The notes beneath the pieces were generated by a model. That model worked only from the letters and a program-made list of their open reading frames with translations, searched no databases and was not told where the DNA came from. DNA of 64,000 nt from the human T2T-CHM13v2.0 reference genome, Homo sapiens. Below, in pieces: positions 4,286 to 48,539 of this stretch. How positions within the stretch are numbered: position 1 is the stretch's first letter; every line of letters starts with the position of its first letter. The stretch is taken from contig CP068257.2 of NCBI GenBank assembly GCA_009914755.4, forward strand, positions 6,560,001-6,624,000. The letters are read 5' to 3'. Position numbers and translations under genes: made by a program.

Positions 4286-4920
<635 letters not shown>

Positions 4921-4994
4921 CATTTTTAAAATAATAACGTTATTGAAATATGATTAACGTATCATGCAATTCATTTATCAAAGTACGCAATTCA

Positions 4995-5300
4995 GGCCAG
5001 GTGCAGTGGCTAATTCCTATAACGCTAAGACTTTGGGCAGCTGAGGCAGGTGGATCGCTTGTGTTCAGGAGTTTGCGACTAGCCTGGGCAACATGGCAAA
5101 ACAGCATCTCTAGCAAAAATACAAAAATTAGCTGGGTGTGGTGGCTCATGCCTGTAGTCCCAACTACTTGGGGACATGAGACTGGAAGATCACTTGAGCC
5201 CAGAAGCCATAGGTTGCAGTGAGACCAGATGGCACCACTGTACTACAGCATGGGTGACAAAAGGAGACCCTGTCTTTAAATAACTAAAGAAAAAAAGAAA
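4995..5300 (+). mobile_element. Alu SINE
   Basis: ggccaggtgcagtggctaattcctataacgctaagactttgggcagctgaggcagg… A-rich tail ~5280-5300. Confidence 0.9.
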
Positions 5301-5469
5301 GTATACAATTGAGTGGTTTTTAGAATATTCAAGGAGCTGTGCATCCATCACCACAGTCTTTCTTAGAAGTGATTACCCACTTGTGAGTTACCCACTTATG
5401 AATGAGAAACCCTCACCTCTTAGCCGCTACCTCCTACGTACCCCATGTTCATAGGCAACCACTGATTTA

Positions 5470-6085
5470 TTTTCTGTCATTGTAGTTTTGCCTAATCTGG
5501 ACCTTTTATAGAAATAGAATTGTACAATGTGTGATCTTTTGTAATTTGCTTTTTTTTTTCTCTTAGCAGAATGTTTTCAAATTTCTTTCATGTTATAGTG
5601 TGTATCAGGATTTCTTTCCTTTTGTAGCTGAGTAATAGTTTATGTTTATCCATTCATTAGTTGATGGACATTTGTGTTGTTTTTGCGTATTCACCATCAT
5701 GAGTCAGGCTGCTATGAACACTCGTACATAAGTTTTAGTGTGAACATATATTTTTATTTCTCTTGGATTTACACTCAGGAGTGAAATTGTTGCATTATGT
5801 GATTACTATACGTTTAGTCTTTGAGAAACTGCCACGTTGTTTTTCAAAGCGGTTACACTGGTCAGGCACAGTGGCTCACACCTTTAATCTCAGGTATTTG
5901 AGACGCTGAGTTTGGAGGATTTTCTTAGCTCGGGAGTTCAGGACAACCCTGGGCAACATAGGGAAACAATGTCTTGATTTTTTAAAAAAATCAAATGCCA
6001 AGAAAACACCCAAATTGATTACACCATTTTATGTTCCCACCAGTAATGTATGTGAGTTCCAATTATTCCAATTGTCACCAACTTT
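5470..6085 (-). mobile_element. Ancient L1 (L1M-type) 3'-region fragment, interrupted by an Alu monomer
   Basis: Antisense L1 3'-end-like text (…atagaattgtacaatgtgtgatcttttgtaatttgc… ccattcattagttgatggacatttgtgttg… ctgccacgttgtttttcaaagcggttacactg / ccattttatgttcccaccagtaatgtatgtgagttccaat) recalled from old LINE-1 3' regions. Confidence 0.5.
5861..5995 (+). mobile_element. Free Alu-monomer-like element (FLAM-like) inserted in the old L1
   Basis: ggtcaggcacagtggctcacacctttaatctcaggtatttgagacgctgag… single left-arm-like monomer with A-rich end. Confidence 0.6.
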
Positions 6086-6086
6086 T

Positions 6087-6415
6087 TTTTTTGAGACAAA
6101 ATCTTGCTCTGTTGCCCAGGCTGGAGTGCAGTGACATGAACATGGCCAGTGCAGCTGTGACATTCCAGGCACAAGTGATCCTCTCACCTCAGCCTCCTAA
6201 GTAGCTGGGACTTACAGGTGCATGCTATCATGTGCAGCTGATTTTTACAATTTTTGGTAGAAATGGGGTGTTGTCATGTAGCCCAGGTTTGTGTCAAACT
6301 CCTGAGCTCAAGTGATCTGCCTGCTTCAGCTTCCGGAAGTGCTGAGATTACAGGTGTGTGCCACCATGCCCGACTGGTGTAACCACTTTGGAAAGCAGCC
6401 ACTGAGCCCGGCCTT
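6087..6415 (-). mobile_element. Alu SINE (plus short Alu-end fragment at 6398-6415)
   Basis: Poly-T then gagacaaaatcttgctctgttgcccaggctggagtgcagtgac … gtgtgtgccaccatgcccgac. Confidence 0.85.
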
Positions 6416-7003
6416 CACCAGTATACCAATATTTGTTAATATCGTTTTATTTTTTACTATTTTTCCATTTTTAAAAACTTATTCTTTTACCTGTATTATT
6501 GATTATAATAAACAACGAATAATTTTGCTGTAGAGTTGAGTCCCCCCAAAAAGTATTTATTGTTTAACTGAAGTAGTTTTTTTTTAACCTGGATATATAT
6601 TTTTTCATTTTCACTTTATTTTTAGTGTTCATTTTTAAAAATTATTTATATGTATTTTTATTTTAATAGGTGTTTGAGAAACAGGTGGTGTTTGGTTCCA
6701 TGAATAAGTTCTTCAGTGTTGATTTCTGAAATGTAGTACCCCTCATTACTTATTAAATTATATATTAAGTCATTATAAAATAATTAATAAACCAAGGACT
6801 TTAGTAAAATGGGAATTTTATTTTAACTTGCAACCTGGGACGTAACTGTCAAAAAAATTAGAGAAATTACCACATTAAGGTTTTAAAATCTTGACCTGAA
6901 AAATGAAAACCTTGGTGCACCTAAGAACCACCAGCCCACTGGTCAAAGTGAACAAAACTAAATGAAAAAATAAAACCAAGAAAACCAAACTCAGGATTAT
7001 TAG

Positions 7004-7378
<375 letters not shown>

Positions 7379-8701
7379 TAATTTTATGTATATTCCAAGT
7401 CAGAATACATCCTATTTTTGAATATTTGATGACTTTAGGATACTATATTAACTCTTAATTGAATTAATACAAGTTTAGGTGTAAAGATGAAGTTTATGTT
7501 GACAAAAATTATTAATGTTTTACATATATGAAAGTAACAATATCATATATTTTTCATACTTGTACAATACTTTGAAATCTATTATTAGCTAATATTTTAT
7601 ATTCATTTTGGGTTTTCACATTATTGTTAGATCCAGAGAAAAGTAATATTGTGTGAATACTCAAATCATAAACATTTTGCTGGATGCATTCATAGATACT
7701 TTATTTAAAAAGTACACTAATTGAAGTTTTACACCATTTTATGATTCATCAAACACAGCAACTGAATACTGGCTTATAGCAACATTACAGATGATGTTAG
7801 TCTAAGATAAAACTCATAACACATTTTAAAAAGGGTAAAAGGAAGGAAAGGAAAAAGGATACAAGGCTGTAGAAAGATTTTAAAAACAAACGTCGTATGT
7901 CTGAACCTTTGCCTGGAGTTTCATATTTTGTGAAAAGCAGTTTGTAAGTAGAGGACTCGTAAGTGCACCTAGTACACTGCAATGGCACAGACACGGCAGA
8001 TAGTCAATAAAATGATCTTTAACTTCTGATCTAGGTTATTTTTGTTGTTGTTCATGTATTAACCTAGTGAAACTCAGCCAATAGCTGTAGTGGCATTGAC
8101 CTGTACAACTTCCAAAATCCCATCCAACCTTAGTGTCCTCTGAAGTTCTCCATAACTTATTGTCTGTTCCAACCAACATTTAGCATAAGCTACAGCTTAT
8201 ATTGTTAATAATTCTTCTATGTTTATGTGCTGATTTGCAAATAAATGGGCCTATATAGTCTTTATCTAGTGTTGGATTGGGATCAAAAGTTTCATGAAAT
8301 CATTGTTTTTAGTATACGTACAGATGGATAATCGTATAAATAAGTACAGATGTGTATAAATGTGTGAGTATACATACATATATTTTCTAGCTCCTCTAAC
8401 AAAAGGGCCTAGAAACAACATCATCCCAGTAACAATGAGAACACCATTCTCCAATTAAAGGAACCAAGGCTCCTTGGGGACATATTTGATATCAGGATTG
8501 GGCAGGGAAAATACAAGATTAGTTTGAAATATTTTGTCATGTTAGGAAGTAAGGAAATGCTCACAAAATGGGGAAAATGTGAAAGGGAAACAGATCCACT
8601 TTGAATAAACTTCCATAGCCAAATTTGAGAAAATTGGGGCAATAAAATAGATAACAATAATAATATATTACAATCTACAGGAGAAAATTTTCAATTAATC
8701 C

Positions 8702-8992
8702 AGGCCAGGTGCAGTTGCTCATGCCTGTATTCCCAGCCCTTTGGGAGGCAGAGACGGGCAGATCACTTGAGGTCAGGAGTTCAAGACCAGCCTGACCAAT
8801 GTGGTGAATCCCTGCCTCTACTAAAAATACAAAAATTAGCCGGGCATGGTGGCACATGCCTGTAGTCCCAGCTACTCCTGAGGCTGATGCAGGAGAATGG
8901 CTTGAATCCCGGAAGGTGGAAGTGCAGTGAGCGGAAATCGCACCATTGCACACCAGCCTGGATGACAAAACAAGACTCCAACTCAAAAAAAA
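8702..8992 (+). mobile_element. Alu SINE
   Basis: ggccaggtgcagttgctcatgcctgtattcccagccctttgggaggcagagacgggc … A-tail ~8983-8992. Confidence 0.9.
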
Positions 8993-9699
8993 TTCCATAT
9001 TGACATAAATAATAAACCAAAGATTGAGAGTGGGTAGTATTTTATTACAGTAAGATTTCATTAAATGTAGGAGACATAAAATATAAGAATCATCACTTTG
9101 CAAATATCATAGTAATAATTGTTGCAAGAAAGAACCTTGGAGGAATGCTAAGATTAGTGGTGAATATATGTTGGGAAAGAACATATTTGCATAATATGAA
9201 AGTATCTTCCCACAAGATAATTATAGAATAGTAACTTCAAAGTGGAGATGTCAACTTAGCCAAGTGATCAAAGTTAACATTACTAATAATAAGATAAATG
9301 AACTTCATGTAATTTCTTATATGATGCACTGAGTAGGACAAAACATCAATTCTATGGTATTCTTAGACAAAATGTATAACTTTAGTCCTAACCGTGAGAA
9401 AACATCAGACTAACTGAAATTGAGGAGGGACATTCTACAAAATAACTGCCAGTATTCATCAAAAGTATTTTAGAAAGACTGAGGAATTCTCCAGAGACAA
9501 GGAGGCATGTTATCTAAGTGCAATGGAGAACATGCATTGTATCATGAACCAGAGATGGACAACAGTAGGATATGTACAATAACACCCCAACATTTGAACA
9601 TTAAACAAAATACTTCAGAAAAACCCATTGGCCAAGAAAAGTTTCACACACACACAAATAGTTTAAACTGAAAGAAAATTTTTTAAAAACTTAATAAAA

Positions 9700-10260
9700 T
9701 GTGGGATGCAGATAAATCGTTCCTTAAAGGTACATTTATAGATGTAATATATTGAAAATAAAAGGCTTCAATCAATGACCTTTAGGCTCTTTTTTAAGAG
9801 GCTAAAAAATAAGCAAAGTATATCCAAATTAAGAAGAAGGAAGATGATAAAGATAAAAATGTAAACCAACAACATAGCAAATAACAAAAGGTGGAGCTAA
9901 TTAATATACCCACAAATTGGTTCTTTGAAAAAAATTTTTTTAATAAACAATGGCTAGCAAGATTTATCTCGAAAAAAATTAGAGAAGCTACATAATGTAG
10001 ATAATGGGAATTAAATAGAGGATGTAACTACAGAACCTACAGACATCAATATAATTATGAAAACTTTAGGCCAATACATTTGACAATTAAAATAACATGG
10101 GAAATTATTTGTAAAACTAATTCTTAAAACTAATGCAAAATGAAATAGAAAAAGTAATAGCTTCTCTATGTATTGAAGAATTTTTTTAATTTAAAAAGAT
10201 TTCTATAATTACAGGCTACATGCTTTCTCAGGTGAATTCTATCAAACATTTAAGAAAGTA
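9700..10260 (+). mobile_element. Degenerate ancient LINE-1 ORF2 N-terminal-region fragment
   Basis: Translation gives weak L1 ORF2-like strings (…N-KRLQSMTFRLLFKRLKNKQSISKLRRRKMIKIKM…, cf. L1 ORF2 …LNAYIRKEERSKINNLSFHLRKLEKEEQ…). Identification from memory of the family, not alignment. Confidence 0.35.
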
Positions 10261-10261
10261 C

Positions 10262-10603
10262 AGAGAGTCCTCAACTTACAGTGGTTTGACTTGTGCTCTT
10301 CTTACTTGATAATGGTGCTTTCATCTGTGTACGTTAATGATGAGCATCAATATGACCAGTTTTTCACTATCAGTATAGTTTTCAATAAATTTCATGAGAT
10401 ACTCAATATTTTAAAATGGGCCTTGTGGTAGATGATTTTGCCCAATTGTAGGATAATGTAAGTGTTCTGAGCAAGTTTAAGGTAGGCGAGGCTAAGTCAT
10501 GATATTCAGTAGGTTAAATATATTAAATGCGTTTTAGACTTACAATATTTTCAATTTAGGATGAGTTCATTAAGACATAAAACAATTGTAAGTTGAGGAG
10601 TAT
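10262..10603. mobile_element. Short non-autonomous DNA-transposon-like element (MITE-like) with ~22-bp terminal inverted repeats
   Basis: Left end cagagagtcctcaacttacagtggtttgacttgtg and right end acaattgtaagttgaggagtatctata are reverse complements of each other (tcctcaacttaca / tgtaagttgagga); ~340 bp between them. Confidence 0.5.
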
Positions 10604-10650
10604 CTATAACATCAATCTTGAACGGACTCTTTTTAAGAAATAGAATTTAA

Positions 10651-10962
<312 letters not shown>

Positions 10963-13439
10963 GGGACATTTCCTATCTTATTTTATGAACCCAGTATTGC
11001 CGATTCCAAATCGAGACAAAGGCATTATACAACTTTGATGTTTATCCCTCATAAACATAGACTCAAAAGTCCTTAAAACATAATAACCAATTGAATGTAG
11101 CAGTACATAGAATGGATAATAAACTGTGAACAAATTAAATTTCTAGCAAGATTGCAAAGTTAATTTATTATTTGAAAGATCAGTTTAATCAATTTTATTC
11201 ACCTGGATGGTTACATCTGGCAAAACTCAGCAAACTGTGCACTTTAAAATAGTATTTATTTTATGTAAATTATGTTTCAATACAATTGATTTTTTAAGAA
11301 AAAAAAACGTTTCCCAGAGTGATCAAAGTGGAGGGCAGGGAACAGTAAACATCAGTGCTTATGTTATAGCTACTAGAAGCCTCCCAATTCCAACGACATG
11401 CTTTCAAGCAGGTCTGATCCTTCCCCTGGAGGATACCTCTGACCCAGGTGTGCTACAAATGTATTGCCCCTAGTTGCTTCTGTCACCTTAGTGATGGAAG
11501 TGACAAGAGGGTACTGGAGAAAGAAAAGGTGTACAAGGTTCCAAATGTACATTCTATTTCCAAAGGACATTTGTGAAGCCAGTGGAAAGCGAACAAACAA
11601 GCTGCTAAATAAGTCACAAGTGTGTTCTCGTACAGTTTTGCGATTAACTAAATAGGACATTCAACAGATAAAATTTGTTTTACATAGTTACTCCTCTAAC
11701 AGGATGAAGTTGTGGATTGTGAGATAGGGCTGATATAACCTGTTTTCTCTCTGCCTCTTTTTTTTCCCCCAAGTTTTGTGTGCAATACATTAGGAAAAAT
11801 ATAATTGGGCTACAAAGCTACAAAAATGGCTTCCTGGAAGTTCCATGCTTGTTTCCATGTGGTGCCTATGTTAGGCACTGTGTTCTCATTTGCACTTTCC
11901 TACTTGATTAGTTAATGTATGAAGGACAAGCCTGATCTCTACTGTGAATTTTTACCAAGGTATTCTAGTAGAAAAATGAGTATGTAATGGTGCTGTGGAA
12001 TGCTAAAGTGTGTAAAACATTAAGAATCTAAAAATATGCTCATTTCCAAGTTTTGTCCCAGAGCAACTGTGCACTCTGATTATATCGCTACTGCTATTTA
12101 AAGTTATCCATTTGCATGTCTAAAAAATAGATTCATACTGATTGTCCCATTTTGATCTCAAAAAACTCCTGAATATGAGAGTCGTGATCAAGGGACGCTT
12201 CATGAAATGTTCCAAAGTTAAAGTGTGCAATGAAACCAGATTTATCATAGCCTTATTTAAAATAATTATTTCTAAAATTGTTATTGTTTAATTATAAACG
12301 GTATCCTTTCAGGATACTTGGAAGATCCATAGCAGTGTTTTTATTTTCACAGAACAAGCATAAATTATTTATGAAATAATAACTCAGATACAGAGATTAC
12401 TTCCTATTGGCCTTACATATGAATATAAATAAATACATATTATGAACATGAGCATACTTATTTTATAATTATGTAAACGCGTGTGTAATGTTATATATAA
12501 GTTCAATAAAGTCATGCTTATACATGGTTTCAATTCATGCTTCTAAAAACCACTCAATGTAGTCATTATCATATGTTAATAAATAATCTCTGAAAATGTG
12601 CTTCTAGTAGTTGCACAATATCCCATCATAAAGATTGTCATGCTGTTTTTAAGTCATACTTTTGGGTATATAAGTTATATCTGATATTTTTCTGCTACAT
12701 ATATACTATTATAAATCTATTAGTAGCTGATTTTTTGTCAACACATATGATTGTTTCCTCACAATAGTACAAGAGTTGGTTGTAACTTTATTTCCTTCCA
12801 ACATTTATTTTAGGTTCAGCGGGTACATGTGCAGGTTTATTATACGGGTAAAATGTGTGTCAATGGGATTTGGTATACAGATTACGTAGTCATCCAGGTA
12901 GCGAACGTAGTATCTAATAGGGAGTTTTTTGATCCTCACTCTCCCCCGACCCTCCACCCACAGTAGACCTTGTGTCTATTTTTCCCTTCTCTGTGTCCAT
13001 GTGGACTCAATGTTTAGCCCCCACTTATAAGTGAGAACATGCAGTGTTTGTGTGGTTTTCTGTTCCTGCATTAATTCACTTAGAATAATGGTATCCAGCT
13101 CCAATCATGTTGCTGCAAAAGACATTATTTCATCCTATGTTATAGGTGTGTAGTATTCCATGGTGTATGTACGCTGCATTTTTTTAATCCAGTCTTCTGT
13201 TAACAGGCATCTAAGTTGATTCCGTGTCTTTGCTATTGTGAATAGTGTTATAATGAAAATATGCGTACATATGTCTATGACAGAATGATTTATATTCCTT
13301 TGGGTATATACCCAATAATGGGATTGCTGGGTTGAATGGTAGTTCTGTTTTAAGTTATTTCAGAAATCTCCAAACTGCTTTCCACAATGGCTGAACAAAT
13401 TTACATTCCTGACGAAACTGGAGACTTCCCTGACTCCCC

Positions 13440-14165
13440 TTGGCAGGATGTGCAACAGGGGTGTGGCTTGTCTGGCCACGGTGTGTGCTGTCAAACCCCT
13501 TACTGGTCTGGGAAGCATGCAGACAGGCAGGTGCAATAGGCAGGGCAAGTGGCCATGGTACTGTCTACGGGTGGGTTCCTGCGACTCCCACAGCCCAAGT
13601 GGGCATGTGTTACAGTGCACTCTTTTAGCTTTGCCATCCACAGACGGCTTAAGTGTTAACCTGTTCAGTGCCCTCTTGGTACCCAGTTCCTTGTCCAGCA
13701 TCCAGAAAGAATTAAGTTGCACACAGACTTGAGGATGGTGAATGTGGGGGTTTTATTGAGTGGTGGAGGTGGCACTCAATGGGATGGATGGGAAGCTGGA
13801 AAGGGGATGGAATGGGAAGATGATCTTCCCCAGGAGCTTTGCCATCCAGAGGCTGATCTCTCCAACCACTGCCAGCCAAACTCCTCTTGGCATTCAGATG
13901 CTCCTTCTCTTCTTTCTGCCACATCATTCTGCAATTCTGCTCTTCTGTTCATCTCCTCATCTGCTTGTCTGCTTCTGGAGCCTGGGGTCTGGGGCATATA
14001 TGGGTACAGGACAGGGGGTGCATGGTGAGCTGAAAGACAACTTTTGGGTGCAAAAGCAGGAATGCCTGTTCCCATTTAGGGCCATGGGTTTCCAGGCTTG
14101 TGGGCAGGGCTTTGCCAGGGAACCACTCTCTTCTACCCAGTATTTCCCTGTCTCCTTTCTATATC
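13440..14165. other. ~730-bp insertion inside the L1 (LTR-like or otherwise unclassified), containing a ~115-bp segment that recurs at 14362-14475
   Basis: L1 colinearity breaks between …tttacattcc and caccaccagcagtg…; segment atccacagacggcttaagtgttaacctgttcagtgccctcttggtacccagttccttgtccagcatccagaaaga…gacttgaggatggtgaatgtgggggtt (13632-13750) is repeated almost verbatim at 14362-14475. Confidence 0.4.
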
Positions 14166-14361
14166 ACCACCAGCAGTGTATAAGCATTCCCTTTTTTCCA
14201 CAAACTCGGCACCGTCTGTTATGTTTTGATTTTTTAATTATAGCCATTCTGACCGGTGTGATATGGTATCTCATGGTTCTGATTTTCTGATGATTAGTGA
14301 TGTTGAGTATTTTTTCATATGGTTGTTTGCCATACATACGTTGTCTTTTGAAAAAAGAATC

Positions 14362-14475
14362 CACAGACGGCTTAAGTGTTAACCCGTTCAGTGCCCTCTT
14401 GGTACCCAAGTCCTTGTCCAGCATCCAGAAAGAAGTTGCACATGGACTTGAGGATGGTGAATGTGGGGGTTCATG
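14362..14475. repeat. Second copy of the ~115-bp element inserted into the L1
   Basis: cacagacggcttaagtgttaacccgttcagtgccctcttggtacccaagtccttgtccagcatccagaaagaagttgcacatggacttgaggatggtgaatgtgggggtt, flanked on both sides by continuous L1 sequence. Confidence 0.5.
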
Positions 14476-14824
14476 TTCTTTGCCTATTTGTAGTGGGTTT
14501 GTTTTTTGTTTATTGATTCTTTATACATGCTAAGTATTAGACCTTTTTCAGATATGTAATTTGAAAATATTTTCTTCTGTTCTGTAGGGTGTTCTCTGTT
14601 GATAGTTTCTTTTGCTGTGCTGAAGCTCTTTAGTTTCATTAGGTTCCACTTGTCAATTCTTCTTTTTGCAATTGCTTTTGGAATCTTCATCATGAAATAT
14701 TTGCCTGCGCCTATGTCCAGAATGATATTTCCTAAGTTTTCTTCTAGGGTTTATATAGTTTTGGGTCTTACATAAGTCCTTCATCCATCTTGAGTTGATT
14801 TTTGTATATGGTGAAAGGAAGGGA

Positions 14825-17800
14825 GTGTACATGCCCCTGTGATATTGTTCCTAATATCCAGGTTGGGAGAGGATATTATACTGAATATTGCAGGAAGTGT
14901 CGACCACCCTGAATGTTGCTTTTAATATCCGGGGAGAGAGGGTGATATTACTCCCAATATCATCCTCTCCCCCCACACCCTGCATAGTACAAGCAATATC
15001 AAAGGGGGTCTGTGCAACACGTGCAATATTGGGAGTAATATCCTCCCCCAACATGGATATTAGAAACAGTATCACAAGGGGTTGTACACCACCTGTGATA
15101 TTGGGGAGTACTATCATTTTCTTTCCCCATGGATATGTAGAACAATATCACAAAGGTGGTGTACAACCCCTGCTATATTGGGAGTAATACTGTACTTTCC
15201 CCACCTAGATATTAGGAACAATATCACAGGGGGTTATACACCACTGCAACATTGGGAGTAATATCATCCTTTCCCTCCCTGGATATTAGGAACAATAACT
15301 CATGGGTGTCTACACCCTGTTCCATATTGGGATTAATATTTTCTCCCTTGCTGGACATAAGGAACAATATAACGAGGGGTATACACTCCTTATGATATTG
15401 CCAGTAATATTATAGACTCCCCCCAGGGATATTAGAAAGAGTATCAGAGAGGGGTGTACATCCCCTGCGATATTGGGAATAATATTCTTTCTTTCCCTGG
15501 ATATTAGGAATAATATCACAAAGGGGTTGTATACCCCCTGTGATATTTTAATTAATATCATCTTCCCCACTGAATATTAGGAACAAATTCCCAGGGGGTT
15601 GTACACCACCTGCAATATGGACAGCTATATCATTGTCTCTCCCCCGAATATAAGGAACAATATCACAAGGGGGTTGTACAACCCCTGTGATATTGGGAGT
15701 AACTTTATACCCTTTCCACATGGATATTAGGAACAATATCACAGGGTGGTTGTACACCCACTGCGATATTGGGAGTAATATCATCCTCTACCCCCTGGGT
15801 ATTGTGAACAATATCATGGGGAGGGGGTGTATGCCCTCTGTGATATTGGGAGTAATATCATCCTGTCCCCTCTGGATATTAGGAATGATATCACAGCGGG
15901 GCTGTACCTTTTCTGCACTATTGGGAGTGGTATCACCCTCTCCCCCTATGGATATTAGGAACAATATCACAAAGGGGGTGTAGACATCCTGCGATATTGA
16001 GAGTAATATTGTCCACTCTTCCCCGAGATATTAGGAACAATATCACAGGCGGAGTGTACACCCCCTGCTATTTTACCTGTAATATTATTCTCTCCCAACC
16101 TGGATATTAGGAATAATATAACAGGAGGGGTTTACACCACCTGTGATATTGGGAGTAATATCATTCTCTCCCCCCATGGATATTGAGAACAATATCACAG
16201 GGGCGGTTTACACCTCCTGCGACATTTAGAGTAATATCATCCTTTTCCCCCATGGATATTAGGAACGATATCGCATGGGAAGTGTACACCCCCACCATAT
16301 TGGGAGTAATATTTTCTCCCTTGCTGGACATTAGGAACAATATCACGGGAATGCACACACCCTGCGATATTGCCAGTAATATCGTAGTCTCCTCCCAGGA
16401 TATTAGGAACAATATCACAAGGGGGGTGTACATGCCCTGTGATATTGGAAGTAATATCATCGACTCCCCCCACGGATATTAGTAACAATATCAGAAGGGG
16501 TGTACACCCCTTGCGATATTTATAGTACTATCATCCTATACCCCCTGGATATTAGGAACAATACCACGGGGGGTGTATACCCACTGTGATATTGGGAGTA
16601 ATTTCATCCTCTACCCCTTGGATGTTAGGAGCAGTATCACAAGGGGGGTGTGCACCCTCTGTGATATTAAAAATAATACCATTCTCTCCTTCTCTGGATA
16701 CTAGGAATAATATCACAGTGCTGGTGTGCACCCTTTACACTATTTGGAGCAATATCACCCTCTCCCCAACTTGATATTAGAGACAATATCATGGGGGGTG
16801 GCGTGTAACACCCTGCACTGTTGGGAGTACTATCATCTAGTCTTCCCCTGGATATAAGAAACAGTATCACAGAAGGGGTCTACACCTCCTGAGATTTTGG
16901 GAGTAATATCATCCTCTCCAAATCTGGATATTAAGAACAGTATAATGGGGTGTGGGGAGTAATATGGTGGGAGTAATACAATCCTCCTCCCCACTTGCTA
17001 TTAGGAACAATATCGCAAAACGTGTGTACACCCACTGTGACATTTGGAGTAATATCAACATTTCCCCACCTGGTATCACGGGGAGAGTGTACACTCCTTA
17101 CGATATTGGAAGTATCATTGTCTCTCACTCTCGATATTAGGAAAAATAGCACAGGGTGTGTATACACTTCCTGTGATTTTGGGAAGAACATCATACCCTT
17201 CTGTCTTTGATATTAGGAACAATATCACAGAGGGGGTGTACAACTTCTGTGATATTATAATATTCTTACTTCCCATGGGTATTAGGAATGATATCCCGGG
17301 GGGCTTGTTGTACACCCCCTGTGATACGGACAGTAATATCATTGTCCTTCCCCCTACATATTAGAAACAATATCACAAGGGTGGTATACACCCCCTGGAT
17401 ATTAGAAACTATCACAGGGGGGCTGTACAACCTCTTTGATACTGTGAGTAATACCATTGTCTCCCCTCCTGGGTATTAATAACAATATCATAGGGTGGGT
17501 GTACACTCCCTGCAATATTGGGAATAATATCATCCTCTCTTCCCAGGGATATTAGGAACGTTATCACAGGTGGGGTTTACACCCCCTGCAATTTTGTCAG
17601 TAATATTACTTCTGGATGTTATTGAATATATCACAGTGGGGGTGTACACCCCTGTGATATGGGGAGTAATAGCATCCTCTTTCCCACTGGATACTACAAA
17701 CAATATCGCAGATTGTGTACAACCTCCTGTGATATTGTTCACAATATTTAGGGAAGGAGAGGATGATATTACTCCACATATCGCAGGGAGTGTTACATCC

Positions 17801-18665
17801 CCTGTAATATTGTTCATAATATTTAGAAGATGACAGGATGATATTACTCCAAATATAGTAGGAAGTATACACTCCCCTGTGATACTGTTCATAATTTTTA
17901 GGGGATTAGAGGATGATATTACTTCCAATATCACAGGGAGTGTACACTGGTGATATTGTTTATAATTTTCAGTGGATTAGAAGATATTATCCCGAATATC
18001 ACAGGGGTTGTACACCCCAAGTGATATTGTTAATATCCAGTGGGAAAGAGGATGATATTACTCCCCATATCACGGGGGATGTAAACCCGTTTGTGGTATT
18101 GTCACTTACATCCGGGGGGGAGAGGATGATATTACTCTGCATATCATAGAGGGTGCACACGGCTGTAATGTTGTCCATAATAACATCCAGAGGGGAAGAG
18201 AATATTATTCCCATGTTTCAGAAGGTGTACACACCCCTGTGATAGTCTCTGTAACATTTAGGGAAGAAGGGGATGATACTACTCCAGATATTGCAGGGGG
18301 TGTACATCCCCCTGTGATACTGTTCGTAAAGTTTAGGGGGAAGAGGATGATATTACTCCCCATATCGAAGGGATTGTACATCTCCCTATATATTGTCCAT
18401 AACATGCAGGGCAGGAGAGGATATTACTACTCCCCATATCACAAGGGGGTGGACACCCCCCTCTAAATATGTCTAACATCCAGGCGGGGACAGGAGGATA
18501 TTTTTCCCCATAACCCAGAGAAAGTAAACCTCCTGTGATATTGTCCATAACATCCAGTGGGGAGAGGATGATATCACTCCCCATATTGCAGGGGGTGCAC
18601 ACTCCACTCTGATATTGGCCATAATATCCGGGGGGGTGAAGTATGAAGTCACTACACATATCGCA
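14825..18665. repeat. Tandem satellite array, ~75-bp unit (~50 copies), unit = 60-bp quasi-palindrome + C-rich tail; contains two orientation switches
   Basis: Period measured from recurring ggatattaggaacaatatcac at 15051, 15127, 15207, 15281, 15352, 15427, 15497, 15571, 15647, 15721, 15797, 15873, 15948, 16025… (~75 bp). Unit GGATATTAGGAACAATATCACAGGGGGTGTACACCCCCTGTGATATTGGGAGTAATATCATCCTCTCCCC. Forward orientation ~14962-17723; reverse-complement orientation 14825-14962 and 17723-18665. Confidence 0.9.
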
Positions 18666-18667
18666 GG

Positions 18668-19548
18668 GATTATTAGTATCAGATTGTTTGAAGGGTTCAC
18701 AGTAAGGATAGTAGTAGGGCGAGTTCTAACTCAAATAGGGGAAATGTGATGGCTACTAGAAAGAATTTTATGGAGAAGGGAATGTGGGCAGAGGATAGAG
18801 GGTCAAATCTGCATTCATAAGGGCTAGATTTTTCTATATATATTTATTTTATACATATATATATTTTTCTCTCTCTCTACATATATATATATTAAGTTGT
18901 GGGAGCCAAAATGTAATAATTATTAGTAAAAGGGCTAATAGGGTGTTGATTACTAGGGTTAATGTTAGGTGAATTACTGTTTTTCGGATGCTATCAAAAC
19001 TTTGGAAATCATGGTACTATTTATACTAAAAGAGTAAGTTCCTCATCAATAAATAGAAACATACAAGAATAGTCATACTATATCTACAAAGTGTCGATAT
19101 CAGGCAGCGGCTTCAAAGGCAAAGTGATGACTAGATGTAAAGTGGTATTTTAATTGGCGGAGAAGGCAGACTGAGGAATGTTGATCCAATAATGATGTGA
19201 ATTCTGTGAAAGCCTGTAGCTATAAAAAAATGTTGAGCCATAAATACCATCAGAAATAGCAAAGAGAGCTTTGAAGTATTCTGAGACTTGTAGGAGGGTG
19301 AAGTAAATATCTAATATAATTGTAACAAGTAGTGCTTGGATTGTATGTTTTTGATTATTTTTTTGTTAGGCTGTGATGGGCTCAAGTAATTGAAACTCCT
19401 GATGCAAGTAATACAGATGGATTCAGGAGAGGTACTTCCAGGGGGTCAAGGGGAGAAATACCTGTTGGGGGTCAATGCCCTCCTAATTCTGGAGTAGGGG
19501 CTAGGCTAGAATGGTAGAATGCTCAAAAGAATCCAGCGAAGAGGAATA
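18668..19548 (-). pseudogene. MT-CO3/MT-TG/MT-ND3 (NUMT): NUMT: nuclear copy of mitochondrial DNA spanning MT-CO3 3' part, tRNA-Gly and the 5' ~300 bp of MT-ND3; old (diverged), with an internal (TA)n expansion
   Basis: Reverse complement of 19040-19548 matches COX3 (…ttcgctggattcttttgagcattctaccattctagcctagcccctactccagaattaggagggcattgacccccaacaggtatttc… cf. human …cccctaccccccaattaggagggcactggcccccaacaggcatcacc…; …gctgcctgatatcgacactttgtagatatagtatgactattcttgtatgtttctatttattgatgaggaacttactcttttagtataaatagtacc cf. human …gccgcctgatactggcattttgtagatgtggtttgactatttctgtatgtctccatctattgatgagggtcttactcttttagtataaatagtacc). tRNA-Gly-derived ~18975-19040. ND3-derived 18668-18975 (…taatcaacaccctattagcccttttactaataattattacattttggctcccacaa… cf. 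human ND3 …taatcaacaccctcctagccttactactaataattattacattttgactaccacaac…). Matching is from memory of the human mtDNA sequence. Confidence 0.8.
18826..18895. repeat. (TA)n/(TATATA)-rich microsatellite inside the NUMT ND3 segment
   Basis: ctatatatatttattttatacatatatatatttttctctctctctacatatatatatatt; absent from the corresponding mtDNA position. Confidence 0.8.
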
Positions 19549-19712
19549 TTTCTGAGCCACCATGCCCGGGTAATTTAAAAAATTTTTTTTTCTAGAGATG
19601 GGGGTCTCACTATGTTGCTCTGGCTGATCTCAAATTCCTGGCCTCAAGTGATCTTTCTGCCACAGCTTTTTAAAGTGATGGGATTACAGTCATGAGCCAC
19701 CATGCCTAGTAT
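19548..19712 (-). mobile_element. Alu fragment (right-arm half)
   Basis: gagccaccatgcccgggtaatttaaaaaattttttttt ctagagatgggggtctcactatgttgctctggctgatctcaaattcctggcctcaagtgatc… gtcatgagccaccatgcctag. Confidence 0.7.
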
Positions 19713-20057
19713 AGAGTGTAATATTAATTTCAAAGTCTTATTCCTAGAGCCATGTATTGACTTTGGCCTAAATAACTCAATATGATATCTCGGAAACTTT
19801 TTTTTACATATTGTGGGGAATGATAATGAGGGAAGGGTATTAGACACTTTTTACTAGGAGATAACTTTGTGCCATTTAAGGAGGAACAAAAATAAATTAT
19901 CAGAAAAATAAAAGTAAGATGAAGTACAAAAGTTCTGTGGCAAAGATGATGATAGTAAAGAATATATTTTTATGACTCATGGTAGCTTTAACATTGTTCT
20001 TAAAATTCTGAGTAATTTAAGGGTTCACATTTGAAGAATCTGATGCATTACTGATAA

Positions 20058-33585: not shown

Positions 33586-36500
33586 ATCACCTTGATGCTA
33601 TCCTCCTGATAGTGAGTGACTTCTCATGAGATCTGGTTGTTTAACAGGCTGTGGAACCTCTTTCCTCACTCTGTCTTCCTCCTACTCCTGCTTTAGGAGA
33701 CATCTCATTGTCCCTTGGCTTTCTGATATAACGAGGAGTCTTCCTGATTCCTCCCAGAAACAGAAGACACAATGATTCCTTCACAGCTTGCAGAAACATG
33801 AGTCAATTACATGTCTTTTATTTACAATAATACAGAAAATTAGAACTGCAGAGAGGAGCTGTGAAGTGTCTTCAAGGCCTTTTTCCCTTTGTCTTGGCTA
33901 TTAGCACAGGGCTTCTTTATATGCAAATTTCTGAAATCTTCTTGAATGTTTCCCCTTAAATGGGATTTTTGTTATTGCTACCTAGCCAACCTGCTATACA
34001 GATAGCTAAAAAAGTAGAAGCAGGCTCAATAGTGGGTAGCAAACAAAGATTGGAAGGGCTTGGAGGGATTAGAGTACTAGAGGGAGTGGGAGGGAGTGAT
34101 TTAATCATGGATGGGTGGGGGTGTATGTGGAAGGGAAAAAGGGGTGGGTAGGGTGGGAGGGAGTAGACTGGCTGTATGGTGGTGGGAAGGTGGTGGGTAG
34201 TAGGAAGGGGGAGTAGCCTGCTGCAGAGGCAGAGCCTCATGGAAAATGCCTACTGGGGAAGTGCACCTGTGGCTTTGCAGGTCTGAGCCCCCATGGCTGC
34301 TCTCATAGATTGGACTAGTGTTGAGTGCCTGTAGCTTTTCCACACGGAGGGTGCAAGCTGTTGGTGGGTCTATGTATCTGGGGTCTGGAGGGTGGTAGCA
34401 TGGGGGCTCCAAGTCCATATTTTCCTTCTGCACTGCCCTAGTAGAGGTTTCCCAAGAACTCTTCGTCTGCAGGAGGCTACTGCATGGAAACAGTAGGAGG
34501 TGGGTGTGGGAGGCAGATCCTTCACCAATGGTTAGGCAACGTCTTCTTGATGCTGTCCTCATGATAGTGTGTTCTCATGAGATCTGGTTATATAACGGGG
34601 TGGCAACTCTTTCCTCTCGCAGTCTTGCTTCTACTCCTGCCATTTGAAATATCTCATTGCCCCTTGGCCTTCTGGTATGATTGGGAGGCTTCCTGATCTG
34701 ATCCTCCCAGAAGCAGAAGCCACTAAGCTTCCTTTACAGCCTGCTGTATAGTGAGCCAATTAAACCTCTTTTCTTTATGATCATACAGAAAATCAGTGCT
34801 ATGAAGTGGAGCCATGAAATGCCTTCAAGGCCCTTTCCCCTTTGTCTTGGCAACCAGCACTCAGCTTCTTTTCATGCAAATATCTGAAGCCTTCGTGAAT
34901 TTTCCCCCGAAAATGGACTTTTCTGTTTTACCACATTGCCAGGCTCTGATAAAGATAGCTGACAATGTAGAACCAGGTTCAGAAGTGAGTAAAAGACAGA
35001 GGTCAGAAGAATTGGGAAAGCTTAGAAGACAGCAAGATGAGGAAAATATTGGACCACTATAGAGAATTGTTAAATACTTGTGATTAGAAGGCTGACAAAA
35101 GTTTAAACACTGAAGTCCAGACTTAAAAGGTCTCAGATGAAAATGAGGAATTTCCTATTAATAGAAGCCAAGATTACATTTGATTGGCCTTAGCAAAGAA
35201 GCTGGCTGCACGGGGACCCTGCCCTGGAGATCTGTGAAACTAGGAACTTAGGGGTGATGATTTAGGATGTATTTGGTGAAATGAACATCTAGGCAGCATA
35301 ACACAAGAGGTGACCTGTCCGCATTGAACAGCCTGTGTTCTTAAGGGTGACCTAAGAAATGACTTCAAGTTGGAACTTCAAGTGGAGATCTAAAGTTTGG
35401 AAAATTTGGAGCCTGGCCAAGTGGTCAAAAAGAAAAGCCGATTTTGAGGGGGAAATTTCAAGAAGGCTTAGGGTATTTGCATAAAAAGGAACCCAGTGCA
35501 AATAGCCAAGACAGTTTGAAACCGGCCTTGAAGGTATTTTAGAGAAGTCTGCAGCAGCCCTTGCTGTCACAGGCCCCTTGGCCTAGGAGAGAAGAATGGT
35601 TTCCTACGCCAGTCCCATGGCCCTGCTGCTGTGTTCAACCGCAGGACACTGCTGCCTGCATCTGTGCAGCTCCAGCACCAGCCATGGCTGAAAGACATAC
35701 AGGTACAGCTCGGGTCATTGCTTCAGAGGTGGCTCAAAGTCTTGAAGGTTTCCATATAGTGTTAAGCCAGTAGGTGCACAGAGAAAGAGACTAGAGGCTT
35801 GGGAGCTCCCGTCTAGACTCCAGAAGATGTACAGAAAATCCTGGATGTTCAGGAAGAAGCTTTTCCAAGAGGCAGAGCCTTATGGGGAACCTCTACTAGG
35901 GGAGCAAAGAAGGGACATATAAGGTTGAAGCCCCCACACAGGGAGGCATCACTCTCTAAACCCCAGATTCATAGACCCACAAACAGCTTGCACCCCTGGT
36001 GTGGAAAAGCTATGGGCACTCAACAACAGCCCTGTCCATGAGAGACAGCCACTGAGGCTGAACGCTGTAAAACCACAGGGGCAGATCTGCCCAAGGCCTT
36101 GGGAGCTCAGCCCTCACAGCCCTGTGCCATGGATATGGGACAAGGATTCAAAAATGATGATTTTGGAGCTGTAGCATTGAGTGACTGGCCTGCTGGGTTT
36201 TGGACATTTATGTATCCTATGAGTCCCTTCTGGGTTTTGTGCTTCTTTCTAGGAATTATTTTTTTCTGTTGGCTGGGAATGCTTACCCATTGCCTGTACA
36301 ATCCTTGTACCTTGGAAGTAGTAAATTTTCTTTATAATTCAGTGACTTATGGGCATAAGGGACTGTAAACTTGTCTCAGATAAGACTCTGGGCTTTGGGC
36401 CTTTGAGTAAATGCTGGAATGAGTTAAGATTTGAGAGACTCTAGGGAAGGCATCATTGCATTTTGCAATGTGAGAAAGACATGAACTTTGGGGGACCAGG

Positions 36501-45500: not shown

Positions 45501-47520
45501 AAGCTCCAGCTCCAGCCATGGCTGAAAGATGCACAGGTACAGCTTGGGTCACTGCTTCAGAGGGTGCAAGCTGCAAGCCTTGGTGGCTTCCACATAGTGT
45601 TAAGCCAGCAGGTGCACAGAGCACAAAACTAGAGGCTGGGGATCCTTTGTCTGGACTCCAGAGTATGTATGGAAAAACCTGGGTGTCCAGGTCGAAACTT
45701 TTCCAAGAGGCAGAGCCTCCTTTACTAGGTCAGTAGAGAAGGAACATATAAGGTTGGAACCCCATACAGGGAGGCACCATTCTGCCAACTCCAGATTCAT
45801 AGACTCACTAGCAGCTTGCACCCTGATTGTGGAAAAGCTATAGGTACTCAACACCAGCCCAGCCCATGAGGGCAACTGTGGAGGTTAGACCCCGCAAAAG
45901 TCACAGGTGCAGACCTGCCCAAGACCTTGGGAGCCCAGGCCTCATACCCTTGTGCTCTGGATGTGGGATCTGGATTCAAAAAAAATGATTTGGAGGTGTA
46001 GGATTCAATGACTGGCCTGTTGGGTTTTTGACTTGTATGGGGTCTGTAAGTCCCAAATATATTTTGTGCTTCTTTCTGGCAAATTTGTTCCTTTTGGCTG
46101 GGAATACTTATCCAATGCATGTAAAATCATTGTACTTTGGAAGTACTTGCTTGGTATTTCAGAGGCTCAGGGGTAGAACATATGGCAGCCTTGTCTCAGA
46201 AGAGACTTTGGGCTTTGGACACTTCAGTAAATGCTGGAATGAGTTAAGAGATTGGGAAACTGTAGAGAAGGCATCATTGTACTTTGCAGTGTGAGAACAA
46301 CATGAAATATGGGGACCAGGGTCAGAATAATATGATTTGGCTCTGCATCCCTAACAAACTCATGTGGAATTGTAATGGGGAATGTTGAAGGTGGGGCCTG
46401 GTGGGAGGTGATTTAATCATTGAGAAGCATGGGGGTTGGAGGTAAGGGTGTGGAGAGAATGGGGGAGATTATTTTGTGGGTGGGAGTGAAAGATGAGGGT
46501 GGGGGTCAGATCCTTCACAAATGGTTAAGCACACTCTCCTTAATGCTGTTCACATGACAGTGAGTTCTCTTGATGATTTTGGAGCTGTGAGATTGAGTGA
46601 ATACTGTCCTGCTGGGTTTTGGACTTGCATTTGTGTTATTTTTCTGGGCAACTTCTTCCCTTTGGATTGAGAAACCTTACCCAATACCTGTTCTACCTTG
46701 AAGGAAAAGAAATCCCTTTTAAATTCAGGGACTCATTGGCAGAAGGGACTGTAACCTTGTCTCAGATGAGATTTTGAAATTTTTACATTCGGAATGAGTT
46801 AAGACTTTTGGAAACTTTTGAAAAGGCATGATTGTGTTTTGCTCTGTGAGAAGGACATGAGGTTCTGGGGAATCAGGGTCAGAATAATATGAGTTGGCTG
46901 TGTGTCCCTATAAAACTCACGTGTCATCCTTAATGTTGGAGGTGGGCCAGGTGGGAGGTGACTTAATCTTGGATGGGAGGGGGTTGGGGTGGAAGGAAAA
47001 GGAGGGATAGTGTGGGGAGGAGTAGGTTGTCAGTAGGGTGGTGGGAAGGTGAGAGTAACCTGCTGCAGAGGCAGAGGCTCATGGGAAACCTCTACTAGGA
47101 GAGTGCACCTGTGGCTTTGCAGGGTGTAGCCCCCATGGCTGATCTCATGGGCTGGGTTGGTGTTGAGTGCCTGTAGCTTTTCCATACTGAGTGTGTGAGC
47201 TGTTGGTGGGCTTATTAATCTGGAGTCTGGAGGATCGTGGCCTCTTGTGTGGGGGCTCAAAGCCTATATTTTCCTTCTCTGCTGCCATAGTGGAAGTTTC
47301 ATAAGAGGTTCTGCCTCTGCAGGAGGCTTCTGCCTGGAAGCAGTGGACAGTGGTGTGGTTGGAGAATCCTTCACCATTGGTTAGTCTTCTTGATGCTGAT
47401 CTCCTGATAGTGAGTTCTCATGTGATCTGGTTGTCTAACAGGATGTCACACCTCTTTCCCCTCTCTGTCTTGCTCCTACTCCTGCCATATGAAACATCTC
47501 ATTGCCTCTTGGTCTTCTGA
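33585..47520 (+). repeat. Tandem macrosatellite: 4 complete + 2 partial copies of a ~3.0-3.4-kb composite unit derived from a rearranged THE1/MST-type MaLR element
   Basis: Landmark gatccttcaccaatggttaagcaccatcttcttgatgctgacct recurs at 34527, 37665, 40913, 44325, 47365 (periods 3138, 3248, 3412, 3040). A second landmark gatccttcacaaatggttaaacaccatctccttaatgctgtcc lies ~900 bp upstream of each (33585, 36748, 40010, 43425, 46505). Units share THE1-like LTR start (atatgatttggctgtgtgcccc…ctcatgtggaattgtaat) and ~1.7-kb internal region. Confidence 0.85.
38632..39555 (+). other. 307-codon ORF inside the MaLR internal region of unit 2 (retroelement-derived; not a host gene)
   Basis: ORF track entry 38632..39555; homologous positions in other units are interrupted (e.g. 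35561..35773, 36099..36368, 45311..45736), consistent with a decaying element ORF. Confidence 0.5.
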
Positions 47521-47544
47521 TATGGTTAGGAGGGGCCTGATCAG

Positions 47545-48335: not shown

Positions 48336-48539
48336 GGGAAATGCATGTTATTGAGGAGCCTGTGGACAGCTGGGGTGGCCCAGTGGTGTTCAATGGCCCA
48401 GTCAAAAGTGGACAAAGCAGGTGTTTGGATGGACCTGGGAGATCTTGCTCAGAGATTCTGACAGGACAAAGGTAAAGGAAAGGCCAGAGTGGTCGGAGAG
48501 ATAGTCACAGTCTATGGTCTGCACAGGATGGACGAGGCC

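What the first reader, a model, noticed from the sequence alone, without database searches (positions are those of the whole stretch)
18668..19548. Ancient NUMT (COX3-tRNAGly-ND3) fused directly to the satellite array, with an internal (TA)n expansion
About 880 bp collinear with mtDNA ~9.5-10.35 kb in reverse orientation, roughly 80-85% similar to modern human mtDNA by eye, implying an old transfer. The ND3-derived part carries a TA-rich microsatellite (18826-18895) absent from mtDNA. The ND3 end of the NUMT merges into satellite-like text (…atccctgcgatatgtgtag…), so the satellite either inserted into or expanded against the NUMT. NUMTs plus satellites are typical of pericentromeric DNA.
Basis: partly seen in the sequence, partly recalled or inferred. 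Interest (0 to 1): 0.5.

Follow-up and report, generated by a model that had tools for sequence, protein, structure and literature searches.

The report
Old truncated mitochondrial insert beside satellite
This is a genuine but dead piece of mitochondrial DNA, copied into the nuclear genome roughly 40 million years ago next to a satellite array and later cut short in this copy; it is an ordinary genomic fossil.

Summary
Window 18668-19556 (minus strand) is a NUMT. It covers COX3 from codon 89, tRNA-Gly and ND3 codons 1-88, about human mtDNA 9470-10322. It is 76-80% identical to ape and baboon-group mtDNA and carries frameshifts and stops. About 47 extra TA/GA-rich bases sit in ND3. The ND3 end joins a 75/76-bp satellite array (14822-18667) without a spacer.

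Dating is limited because no New World monkey or strepsirrhine mtDNA could be fetched. Likelihood placement and decay at mt-invariant sites put the transfer at or before the ape/Old World monkey split, about 40-45 Myr ago (plausible range 30-55).

One new point: the COX3 "end" is not an original insertion junction. A 31-mer across the satellite|ND3 junction found 20 human-associated metagenome contigs. The long ones run 96-99% identical to the window over 8-15 kb. In 13 of them the NUMT continues past 19556 into COX3; the longer ones then add tRNA-cluster-COX1 and 12S-tRNA-16S pieces. The window copy, and contig L016, is cut at 19556/19557 and joined to an antisense Alu fragment.

Whether the satellite or the NUMT came first is unresolved, though the array's roughly 30% monomer divergence argues against a later in-situ expansion. 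The finding is ordinary and of low interest.

The parts
18668..19556 (-). NUMT, 889 bp: mtDNA about 9470-10322 in human numbering. A non-functional fossil.
   Evidence: blastn to Pan mtDNA E = 9e-174, and the only mt-derived piece in the window. Alignment to 9 mt genomes.
19036..19556 (-). COX3-derived part, codon 89 to the incomplete stop. It carries +1, +1 and -2 frameshifts and an AGA stop (mitochondrial code).
18975..19035 (-). tRNA-Gly-derived part, 61 nt instead of 68, with about 7 nt deleted in the anticodon arm. It is no longer recognised as a tRNA.
   Evidence: Alignment. ARAGORN and Rfam find nothing.
18668..18974 (-). ND3-derived part, codons 1-88. It is interrupted by the TA-rich tract, a 4-nt deletion and an AGA stop.
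18842..18890 (.). Compound (TA)n/(GA)n low-complexity tract with no mtDNA counterpart (net +47 nt). It is present, with small length differences, in every related copy in which the tract could be read.
14822..18667 (.). Degenerate 75/76-bp satellite array of about 50 monomers, in three orientation blocks: 14822-14965 (+), 14965-17700 (-) and 17700-18667 (+). The last block also shows a 221-nt periodicity. The array ends inside a monomer at the NUMT.
   Evidence: TRF, reading of the sequence, autocorrelation and orientation map.
19553..19556 (.). TGAG at the secondary breakpoint. The long-form NUMT reads ...TTTCTGAG|ATAATAAATAGG; the window reads ...TTTCTGAG|CCACCATGCCCGG. TGAG belongs to the NUMT and fits the Alu consensus, so a 4-bp microhomology is inferred.
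   Evidence: The Alu consensus is from my own knowledge.
19557..19709 (-). Antisense Alu fragment: left monomer, A-rich linker and the first bases of the right monomer. It looks AluJ-like by eye. Its 3' half and poly-A are missing.
   Evidence: Reading. A weak mir-1285 (Alu-derived) Rfam match at 19599-19659. The subfamily call is from memory.
14400..14821 (+). L1 3'-region fragment that ends abruptly where the satellite begins.
   Evidence: Reading only (recognised from memory). A Pfam check failed because of stop codons.

Best explanation
Window 18668-19556 is a dead nuclear copy of mitochondrial DNA (COX3 3' two-thirds, tRNA-Gly, ND3 5' three-quarters).

Inferred history:

1. In a stem-catarrhine or late stem-anthropoid ancestor, roughly 40-45 Myr ago, several mtDNA fragments were ligated into a chromosomal break by end joining, at or beside a block of 75/76-bp satellite. 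This produced a composite NUMT. Its order is ND3-tRNAGly-COX3 (reversed), then tRNA cluster-COX1, then 12S-tRNAVal-16S.

2. The insert then decayed neutrally. It changed at 5-6% of mt-invariant sites and gained frameshifts. Replication slippage on a TA-rich seed in ND3 grew a compound microsatellite of about 47 nt.

3. The block from L1 through satellite to NUMT (at least 15 kb) was copied by segmental duplication. Copies now differ by about 0-2%, with some at 4%.

4. In the lineage of the window copy a rearrangement cut the NUMT at COX3 codon 89. It joined the cut end to the middle of an antisense Alu across an inferred TGAG microhomology.

Shown here: the NUMT identity and boundaries; the extra TA tract; the shared satellite junction; the longer form in related copies; and the Alu junction in an independent contig.

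Inferred: the end-joining mechanism, the date, the order of events and the microhomology.
For: Identity and collinearity with mtDNA. COX3 and ND3 by Pfam and PDB. Pseudogene lesions.

Age:
- The NUMT branch was modelled as nuclear (equal rates across sites). The best placement is outside crown catarrhines, lnL -4820.5. Sister to apes gives -4831.1 and sister to the Old World monkey -4828.0. RELL support is 0.85, 0.005 and 0.15 respectively.
- The attachment lies 0.083 substitutions/site below the crown node. Crown-to-tip lengths are 0.16-0.25 over about 29 Myr (date from the literature, my knowledge). That puts the transfer about 12 Myr earlier.
- The NUMT differs at 20 of 388 sites (5.2%) that are invariant in 9 mt genomes, and at 26 of 434 (6.0%) in a second count. 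This is about what the human lineage has accumulated since roughly 40-45 Myr.
- COX3 residues mix ancestral states (PELGG, CLLRQ, QLK) with anthropoid or catarrhine states (GGHWPP, ENN).

Composite long form: the junction 31-mer hits 20 metagenome contigs. The long ones are collinear with the window over 8-15 kb at 98.6-99.1%, some reaching left to about 4.4 kb. Thirteen contigs end their match exactly at 19556. Beyond that point all 13 read the next COX3 bases. After about 105 nt of COX3, the contigs long enough to show it carry a piece matching Pongo COX1 (76.5% over 762 nt, E = 1e-166). Further on lies a bacterial-type SSU rRNA hit (101 bits) flanked by a tRNA.

The window-type NUMT|Alu junction is reproduced in contig L016 from a human skin metagenome. 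The TA tract is present in all 15 contigs where its flanks could be located; 5 could not be read.
Against: - No platyrrhine, tarsier, strepsirrhine or gibbon mtDNA could be fetched, so the date rests on 4 catarrhines and 4 distant outgroups.
- With a plain GTR+gamma model the three placements around the catarrhine crown differ by about 1 lnL unit or less.
- RY-coded informative sites split 10 (outside the crown) against 9 (with apes).
- The ML nuclear branch (0.09, kappa about 11) is longer and more transition-rich than expected, so the model is imperfect.
- The related copies come from short-read metagenome assemblies. Some structural differences among them, such as breakpoints 1575 and 2089 nt beyond 19556, may be assembly chimeras.
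- None of the 20 contigs is identical to the window (maximum 99.0%). The exact locus, its chromosome and even the host species are therefore not established.
- The window and L016 share the Alu junction but almost no private substitutions.
Confidence: 0.85

Rival explanations
1. The piece is a stand-alone 0.88-kb NUMT, and both of its present ends (satellite on one side, Alu on the other) are the original insertion junctions.
For: Within the window this is the only mt-derived segment. Both ends are clean joins with 0-4 bp of possible overlap.
Against: Thirteen independent contigs that share the satellite junction, seven of them also more than 8 kb of left flank, continue collinearly into COX3 past 19556. 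The longer ones then run into further mt pieces. Collinear mt sequence cannot be added secondarily, so the long form is ancestral.
Confidence: 0.05
2. The satellite arrived after the NUMT. It either inserted into a longer NUMT or expanded up against it, removing the distal part of ND3.
For: ND3 stops at codon 88 inside the gene, and the array stops inside a monomer. The array has orientation switches that show it has been rearranged.
Against: Neighbouring monomers match only 66-72%, far more diverged than the NUMT's own 5-9% nuclear-era change. No ND3, tRNA-Arg or ND4L continuation lies beyond the array. The mt fragments of the long form all end at arbitrary points, so an end inside ND3 needs no special cause. 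An old, already diverged array could still have been joined on later by rearrangement; this is not excluded.
Confidence: 0.3
3. The transfer is much younger (hominoid-specific, under 25 Myr), and the low identity only reflects fast mtDNA evolution.
For: Transversion distances put the NUMT nearer to apes (48) than to Theropithecus (65). Nine RY sites group it with apes. A plain GTR+gamma model cannot reject this (difference of 1.1 lnL units).
Against: With a nuclear-type terminal branch, sister-to-apes is worse by 10.6 lnL units and has RELL support 0.005. Change at 5-6% of mt-invariant sites is too much for 20 Myr of nuclear evolution. The NUMT keeps ancestral residues that all sampled catarrhines, and platyrrhines, have lost.
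Confidence: 0.1
4. It is an artefact: mtDNA contamination or a mis-assembly joining mtDNA to satellite.
For: None beyond the general difficulty of assembling satellite-rich regions.
Against: Identity to any mtDNA sampled is only 76-80%, and the piece has frameshifts and a 47-nt insertion. The satellite junction recurs in 20 independent assemblies and the Alu junction in one.
Confidence: 0.01

Closest known systems
Ancient primate NUMTs as catalogued for human and great-ape genomes (for example the T2T great-ape NUMT survey, PMC13629686)
   Same: It is a DNA-level copy of contiguous mt genes, inserted without target-site duplication or poly-A. It is non-functional, decays at the nuclear rate, and is carried along by later segmental duplication.
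   Different: Nothing essential differs. It directly abuts a satellite array, whereas that survey reports satellites depleted around NUMTs. I could not look up its catalogue entry because no human genome database was available.
Complex (multi-fragment, rearranged) NUMT insertions
   Same: Related copies carry three non-adjacent mt segments in mixed orientation, joined head to tail: ND3-COX3 reversed, tRNA cluster-COX1, and 12S-tRNA-16S.
   Different: The window copy keeps only the first fragment, because it is truncated at 19556.
Human gamma satellite (GSAT/GSATII family; 220-nt unit, pericentromeric and acrocentric junction regions; PMC8997349)
   Same: The array shows a 221-nt periodicity in its NUMT-proximal block (about 3 x 74 nt) and moderate GC. 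It shares the window with a 48-bp CER-like array.
L006, another old NUMT (ATP6-COX3-tRNAGly-ND3) on ENA contig ERZ926484 k127_285134
   Same: It covers the same mt region and has similar decay. It is the window NUMT's nearest sequence (16.8% difference, 23 transversions) and shares its ancestral COX3 residues.
   Different: It has different flanks, extent and indels, and no TA expansion. Likelihood favours separate insertions over one insertion plus duplication by 5.4 lnL units.

Membership tests
NUMT | Significant nucleotide homology to mitochondrial DNA | tested here: met
   E = 9e-174 to Pan mtDNA; six mt genomes hit the same interval.
NUMT | Collinear with the mt genome across gene boundaries (DNA-level transfer, not a processed transcript) | tested here: met
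   COX3 3' end, tRNA-Gly and ND3 5' part lie in mt order on one strand.
NUMT | Embedded in nuclear sequence | tested here: met
   Flanked by a satellite array and an Alu fragment. The same flanks recur over 8-15 kb in independent contigs.
NUMT | Loss of function under the mitochondrial code | tested here: met
   Three frameshifts and an AGA stop in COX3. About 7 nt lost from tRNA-Gly. A +47-nt insertion, a -4-nt deletion and an AGA stop in ND3. No tRNA is detected.
NUMT | Age from presence or absence at orthologous sites in other primates | not testable with these tools
   No primate nuclear genome collection was available. Two exact-ORF look-ups across the junction found nothing.
Complex multi-fragment NUMT | Two or more non-contiguous mt segments joined at one locus | tested here: not met
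   The window holds a single segment. The feature is met in related long-form copies, from which the window copy is derived by truncation.
Segmental duplication (duplicon) | At least 1 kb present in more than one copy at 90% identity or more | tested here: met
   Contigs are 96-99% identical to the window over 8-15 kb. None is identical, there are two different right-hand structures, and the contigs are 98-100% identical among themselves. Copy number and locations are unknown.
Gamma satellite (GSAT/GSATII) | Tandem unit of about 220 nt | tested here: inconclusive
   Autocorrelation at 221 nt is 0.42 against 0.43 at 75 nt in 17700-18667, but weaker (0.34 at 222) in 14965-17600. TRF reports periods of 75/76 and 148/152.
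Gamma satellite (GSAT/GSATII) | Match to the family consensus | not testable with these tools
   No Dfam or Repbase library was available. A full-text search for core motifs found nothing relevant.

The most novel reading that the evidence does not exclude
The mtDNA fragments were captured as filler at a break inside or at the edge of an already existing satellite block. On that reading the NUMT dates that satellite block, and the core of a now multi-copy pericentromeric or acrocentric duplicon, to at least about 40 Myr. The shared satellite|ND3 junction and the two alternative right-hand ends would then be clean cladistic markers for tracing how the duplicon spread among chromosomes.
Probability: 0.25. 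Interest if true: 0.3.

Novelty: already known. Interest (0 to 1): 0.12.

Why it matters
It matters little. Old NUMTs are abundant and exhaustively catalogued in human and ape genomes. At 76-80% identity this one cannot confound mtDNA analyses.

Its modest value is as a dated fossil. It gives a minimum age for its junction with the satellite. Its two structural forms (long composite, and Alu-truncated) mark branches in the history of a duplicated pericentromeric-type block.

The practical lesson for the scan is that an apparent NUMT end next to a repeat may be a later rearrangement breakpoint, not an insertion junction. Paralogous copies can show this.

Tried and rejected
- ARAGORN and Rfam on 18000-20000 found no tRNA. 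The tRNA-Gly is too decayed, so it is shown by alignment only.
- Human mtDNA could not be fetched. The human COX3 cluster has no contigs on record. A catarrhine COX3/tRNA-Gly pattern found nothing in viral, metagenome or genome contigs. I used Pan as proxy, plus a recalled rCRS segment checked only by translation.
- Platyrrhine DNA could not be fetched. Ateles COX3 has no contig on record. The third protein search was wasted, because the 'Sapajus apella' ND3 entry turned out to be dog-like.
- Plain GTR+gamma likelihood did not resolve the placement and gave an implausibly long NUMT branch of 0.26. I replaced it with a model that has an equal-rates nuclear terminal branch.
- A parsimony reconstruction of the crown-catarrhine ancestor made the NUMT look 18% diverged. 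I judged this biased at fast sites and used only its invariant-site figure.
- One insertion plus duplication for the window NUMT and L006 is disfavoured by 5.4 lnL units and by excess difference at mt-variable sites.
- Exact-ORF look-ups across the junction found nothing. The Alu-junction 33-mer was absent from bacterial and archaeal genome contigs.
- Naming the satellite from the literature or from motif searches failed.
- The idea that a hairpin in the satellite's palindromic core explains the breakpoint has weak support: consensus unit z = -2.2, the actual junction sequence z = +0.7. I dropped it.
- A Pfam check of the L1 flank failed because of stop codons.

Full report
**What is there.** The window reads as primate nuclear DNA (Alu and L1 fragments). 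Translating the minus strand of 18600-19620 with the vertebrate mitochondrial code gives recognisable COX3 and ND3 peptides, spread over shifting frames.
- The stitched COX3 translation matches Pfam COX3 (E = 2e-84, profile positions 86-257 of 258) and human COX3 in PDB 5z62_C (E = 8e-94, residues 88-259).
- The ND3 translation matches PF00507 and human ND3 9cwt_j (E = 2e-34, residues 9-82).
- At DNA level the whole window has exactly one mt-derived segment, 18668-19556 on the minus strand. Its best match is Pan troglodytes mtDNA positions 8888-9740 (E = 9e-174; Pongo).
- In the Pan record this covers COX3 nt 264-784, tRNA-Gly and ND3 nt 1-264. With the standard rCRS gene starts (my knowledge) that is human mt about 9470-10322.
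- Sub-parts in window coordinates: COX3 19036-19556, tRNA-Gly 18975-19035, ND3 18668-18974.

**It is a pseudogene.**
- COX3 carries +1, +1 and -2 indels and an AGA stop.
- tRNA-Gly has lost about 7 nt of its anticodon arm and is not detected by ARAGORN or Rfam.
- ND3 has an AGA stop, a 4-nt deletion and a net 47-nt insertion.

The inserted bases (about 18842-18890) form a compound (TA)n/(GA)n tract with an internal repeat of about 17 nt (TRF). Nine mt genomes, and an independent NUMT of the same region (L006), have only 6 nt there. L006 reads AATATTTATATAAAAAAA at the site. The ancestral mt sequence was therefore probably already TA-rich, a natural seed for slippage.

**Similarity and age.** Over 839 gap-free columns the NUMT is 79.6% identical to Pan, 78.3% to Gorilla, 76.4% to Pongo, 76.9% to Theropithecus and 70-73% to Manis, dog, mouse and a hystricognath rodent. 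It is 78.3% identical to a human rCRS segment that I recalled from memory. That segment translates exactly to human COX3 residues 89-260 and to the first 99 residues of human ND3 as I know them, and agrees with the stretches printed in the PDB alignments.

The placement analyses gave the following.
- A plain GTR+gamma model cannot separate three placements: outside crown catarrhines, sister to apes, or sister to the Old World monkey. They differ by about 1 lnL unit or less. It does reject a position inside the African apes plus Pongo, and a position off the catarrhine stem. It also inflates the NUMT branch to 0.26. This happens because nuclear-era changes fall evenly on sites that mtDNA keeps constant.
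- Modelling the NUMT terminal branch as nuclear (equal rates, strand-symmetric HKY) improves the fit and separates the placements. Outside crown catarrhines gives -4820.5, sister to the Old World monkey -4828.0, and sister to apes -4831.1. RELL support is 0.85, 0.15 and 0.005.
- The attachment lies 0.083 substitutions/site below the crown node, whose descendants have 0.16-0.25. With a crown age of about 29 Myr (literature value, my knowledge) the transfer falls at about 40-45 Myr.

Two rougher indicators agree with that date.
- The NUMT differs at 5.2% (20 of 388) or 6.0% (26 of 434) of sites invariant across the mt genomes sampled.
- Its COX3 residues mix ancestral states lost in all sampled anthropoids (PELGG, CLLRQ, QLK) with anthropoid or catarrhine states (GGHWPP, ENN).

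There are caveats. RY-coded informative sites split 10 to 9. No platyrrhine, tarsier, strepsirrhine or gibbon mtDNA could be obtained. I therefore give 30-55 Myr as the plausible range and cannot say on which side of the platyrrhine split the transfer falls.

**Left junction.**
- TRF finds a degenerate 75/76-bp array from about 14994 to 18668, with 66-72% matches between neighbouring units. Reading and an orientation map extend it to 14822.
- The array has three blocks: + to about 14965, - to about 17700, and + to 18667.
- The NUMT-proximal block also has a 221-nt periodicity. That recalls the 220-nt gamma satellite (PMC8997349). I could not test this against a consensus.
- The array ends inside a monomer (…ATATCGCAGGG) and ND3 begins at once. 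At most 1-3 C/G bases are ambiguous.
- Upstream of the array lies a truncated L1 3' fragment (by eye).
- No ND3-distal or ND4L sequence lies beyond the array.

**Right junction: the new result.** A 31-mer spanning the satellite|ND3 junction found 20 contigs in the metagenome collection; at least one is explicitly a human skin metagenome.
- All but two short or divergent contigs align to the window at 96-99% (most 98-99%). Eight align over 8-15 kb at 98.6-99.1%, some reaching left to about 4.4 kb.
- In 13 contigs the match stops exactly at 19556. Twelve of them run on for 200-2,550 nt; L011 ends only 22 nt beyond.
- At that point they read …TTTCTGAG|ATAATAAATAGGACTGTCCC…, which is the next part of COX3. 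The window reads …TTTCTGAG|CCACCATGCCCGG….
- In these long-form copies COX3 runs on for about 105 nt. A second mt piece in the opposite orientation follows directly, covering the tRNA cluster and COX1. It is 76.5% identical to Pongo COX1 over 762 nt, E = 1e-166.
- After a filler of about 60 nt comes a third piece. Rfam calls it small-subunit rRNA (101 bits) followed by a tRNA, and it runs on into 16S-like sequence to the contig end. The rCRS positions I assign to pieces 2 and 3 (about 5620-7040 and about 960 to at least 2000) rest on memory.

Collinear mt sequence cannot be added after the fact, so the long composite NUMT (at least 3.4 kb) is ancestral and the window copy is truncated. The window-type junction is itself real: contig L016 reproduces it base for base. 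The sequence to the right of the junction is an antisense Alu, comprising the left monomer, the linker and the start of the right monomer. TGAG fits both the NUMT and the Alu consensus, so I infer a 4-bp microhomology join.

**Duplication.**
- The contigs are 98-100% identical among themselves. None is identical to the window; the maximum is 99.0%.
- Across the 1-kb NUMT the window has 13 private differences from the contig consensus, L016 has 11, and they share only 3.
- The TA tract is present in all 15 contigs where its flanks could be located, with differences of 1-2 nt or of motif; five contigs could not be read.

The satellite junction, the array with its orientation switches, and the TA tract therefore all predate a fairly recent spread of this block. 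The window is one distinct copy, or an ortholog in a close relative of human; I cannot tell which. Further breakpoints among long-form contigs, at 1575 and 2089 nt beyond 19556, may be real paralog differences or short-read assembly chimeras.

**Which came first, satellite or NUMT?** This is not settled.
- Monomer divergence of about 30% is several times the NUMT's own nuclear-era change. That argues against an in-situ expansion after the transfer.
- All fragments of the composite end at arbitrary mt positions, so an end inside ND3 needs no special cause.
- An old array could nevertheless have been joined on later.

I put insertion next to an existing array at about 0.6. The far end of the composite NUMT, or an ortholog lacking one element, would decide the question.

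**Comparison with what is known, and verdict.** This is a standard ancient NUMT, in related copies a standard complex multi-fragment NUMT, lying in duplicated satellite-rich DNA. The same window holds a 48-bp CER-like array at its right end and a diverged tandem repeat of about 3.3 kb. The only mildly atypical feature is direct contact with a satellite, since a T2T ape survey reports satellites depleted around NUMTs (PMC13629686). Nothing here is mechanistically new.

Its inference about the satellite is unsupported, and it missed that the COX3 end is a secondary breakpoint. Interest is low.

Noticed in passing
L006 (ENA ERZ926484 contig k127_285134), whole 1450 bp: Another old NUMT (ATP6 3' end-COX3-tRNAGly-ND3). 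It shares 6 changes with the window NUMT at sites invariant in 9 mt genomes. Three are not CpG-type, including Gly to Ala in the conserved HHFGFE motif. Likelihood still favours separate insertions. The shared changes are unexplained: chance, a shared source haplotype or gene conversion.
   Followed up: partly
window 33600-47600: A tandem macro-repeat of about 3.2-3.4 kb with at least 4 diverged copies (60-86% identity), G-rich on the + strand. ORFs of 130 aa or more there look non-coding.
   Followed up: no
window 63309-64000: A 48-bp tandem array running off the window end (77-80% between copies). From memory it resembles the CER satellite of acrocentric and pericentromeric regions. Not tested.
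   Followed up: no
window 47409-48185 and 62037-62983: A duplicated segment (87% over 160 nt), each copy followed by 14/29-nt minisatellites of unit TCAGTGAGGCCTTG.
   Followed up: no
window 48519-48790 / 49216-49487: An inverted repeat with 272-nt arms, 86% complementary, 425 nt apart.
   Followed up: no
window 14965 and about 17600-17700: The satellite array switches orientation twice. The monomer has a near-palindromic core (CAATATCACAGGGGG-TGTACA-CCCCCTGCGATATTG), which might favour such inversions. Folding gave only weak support.
   Followed up: partly
P0213 (UniRef G9HQ50, labelled Sapajus apella ND3): This database entry is 89% identical to Canis ND3, and its nearest 50 relatives are canids and felids. 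It is probably a mislabelled or contaminated record.
   Followed up: no
L010-L029 compared with window 4446-19556: No human-associated contig is identical to the window (maximum 99.0%). The window has about 13 private differences per kb. The window is therefore an unsampled paralog, or comes from another haplotype or a closely related species.
   Followed up: partly
L020 (Ga0115855_100250), L013, L012, L028: Structural variants of the block. L020 shows an inverted arrangement of window 12255-14678 next to the array. L013 leaves the long form 1575 nt beyond 19556, and L012 and L028 leave it at 2089 nt. These are either real paralog breakpoints or assembly chimeras.
   Followed up: no
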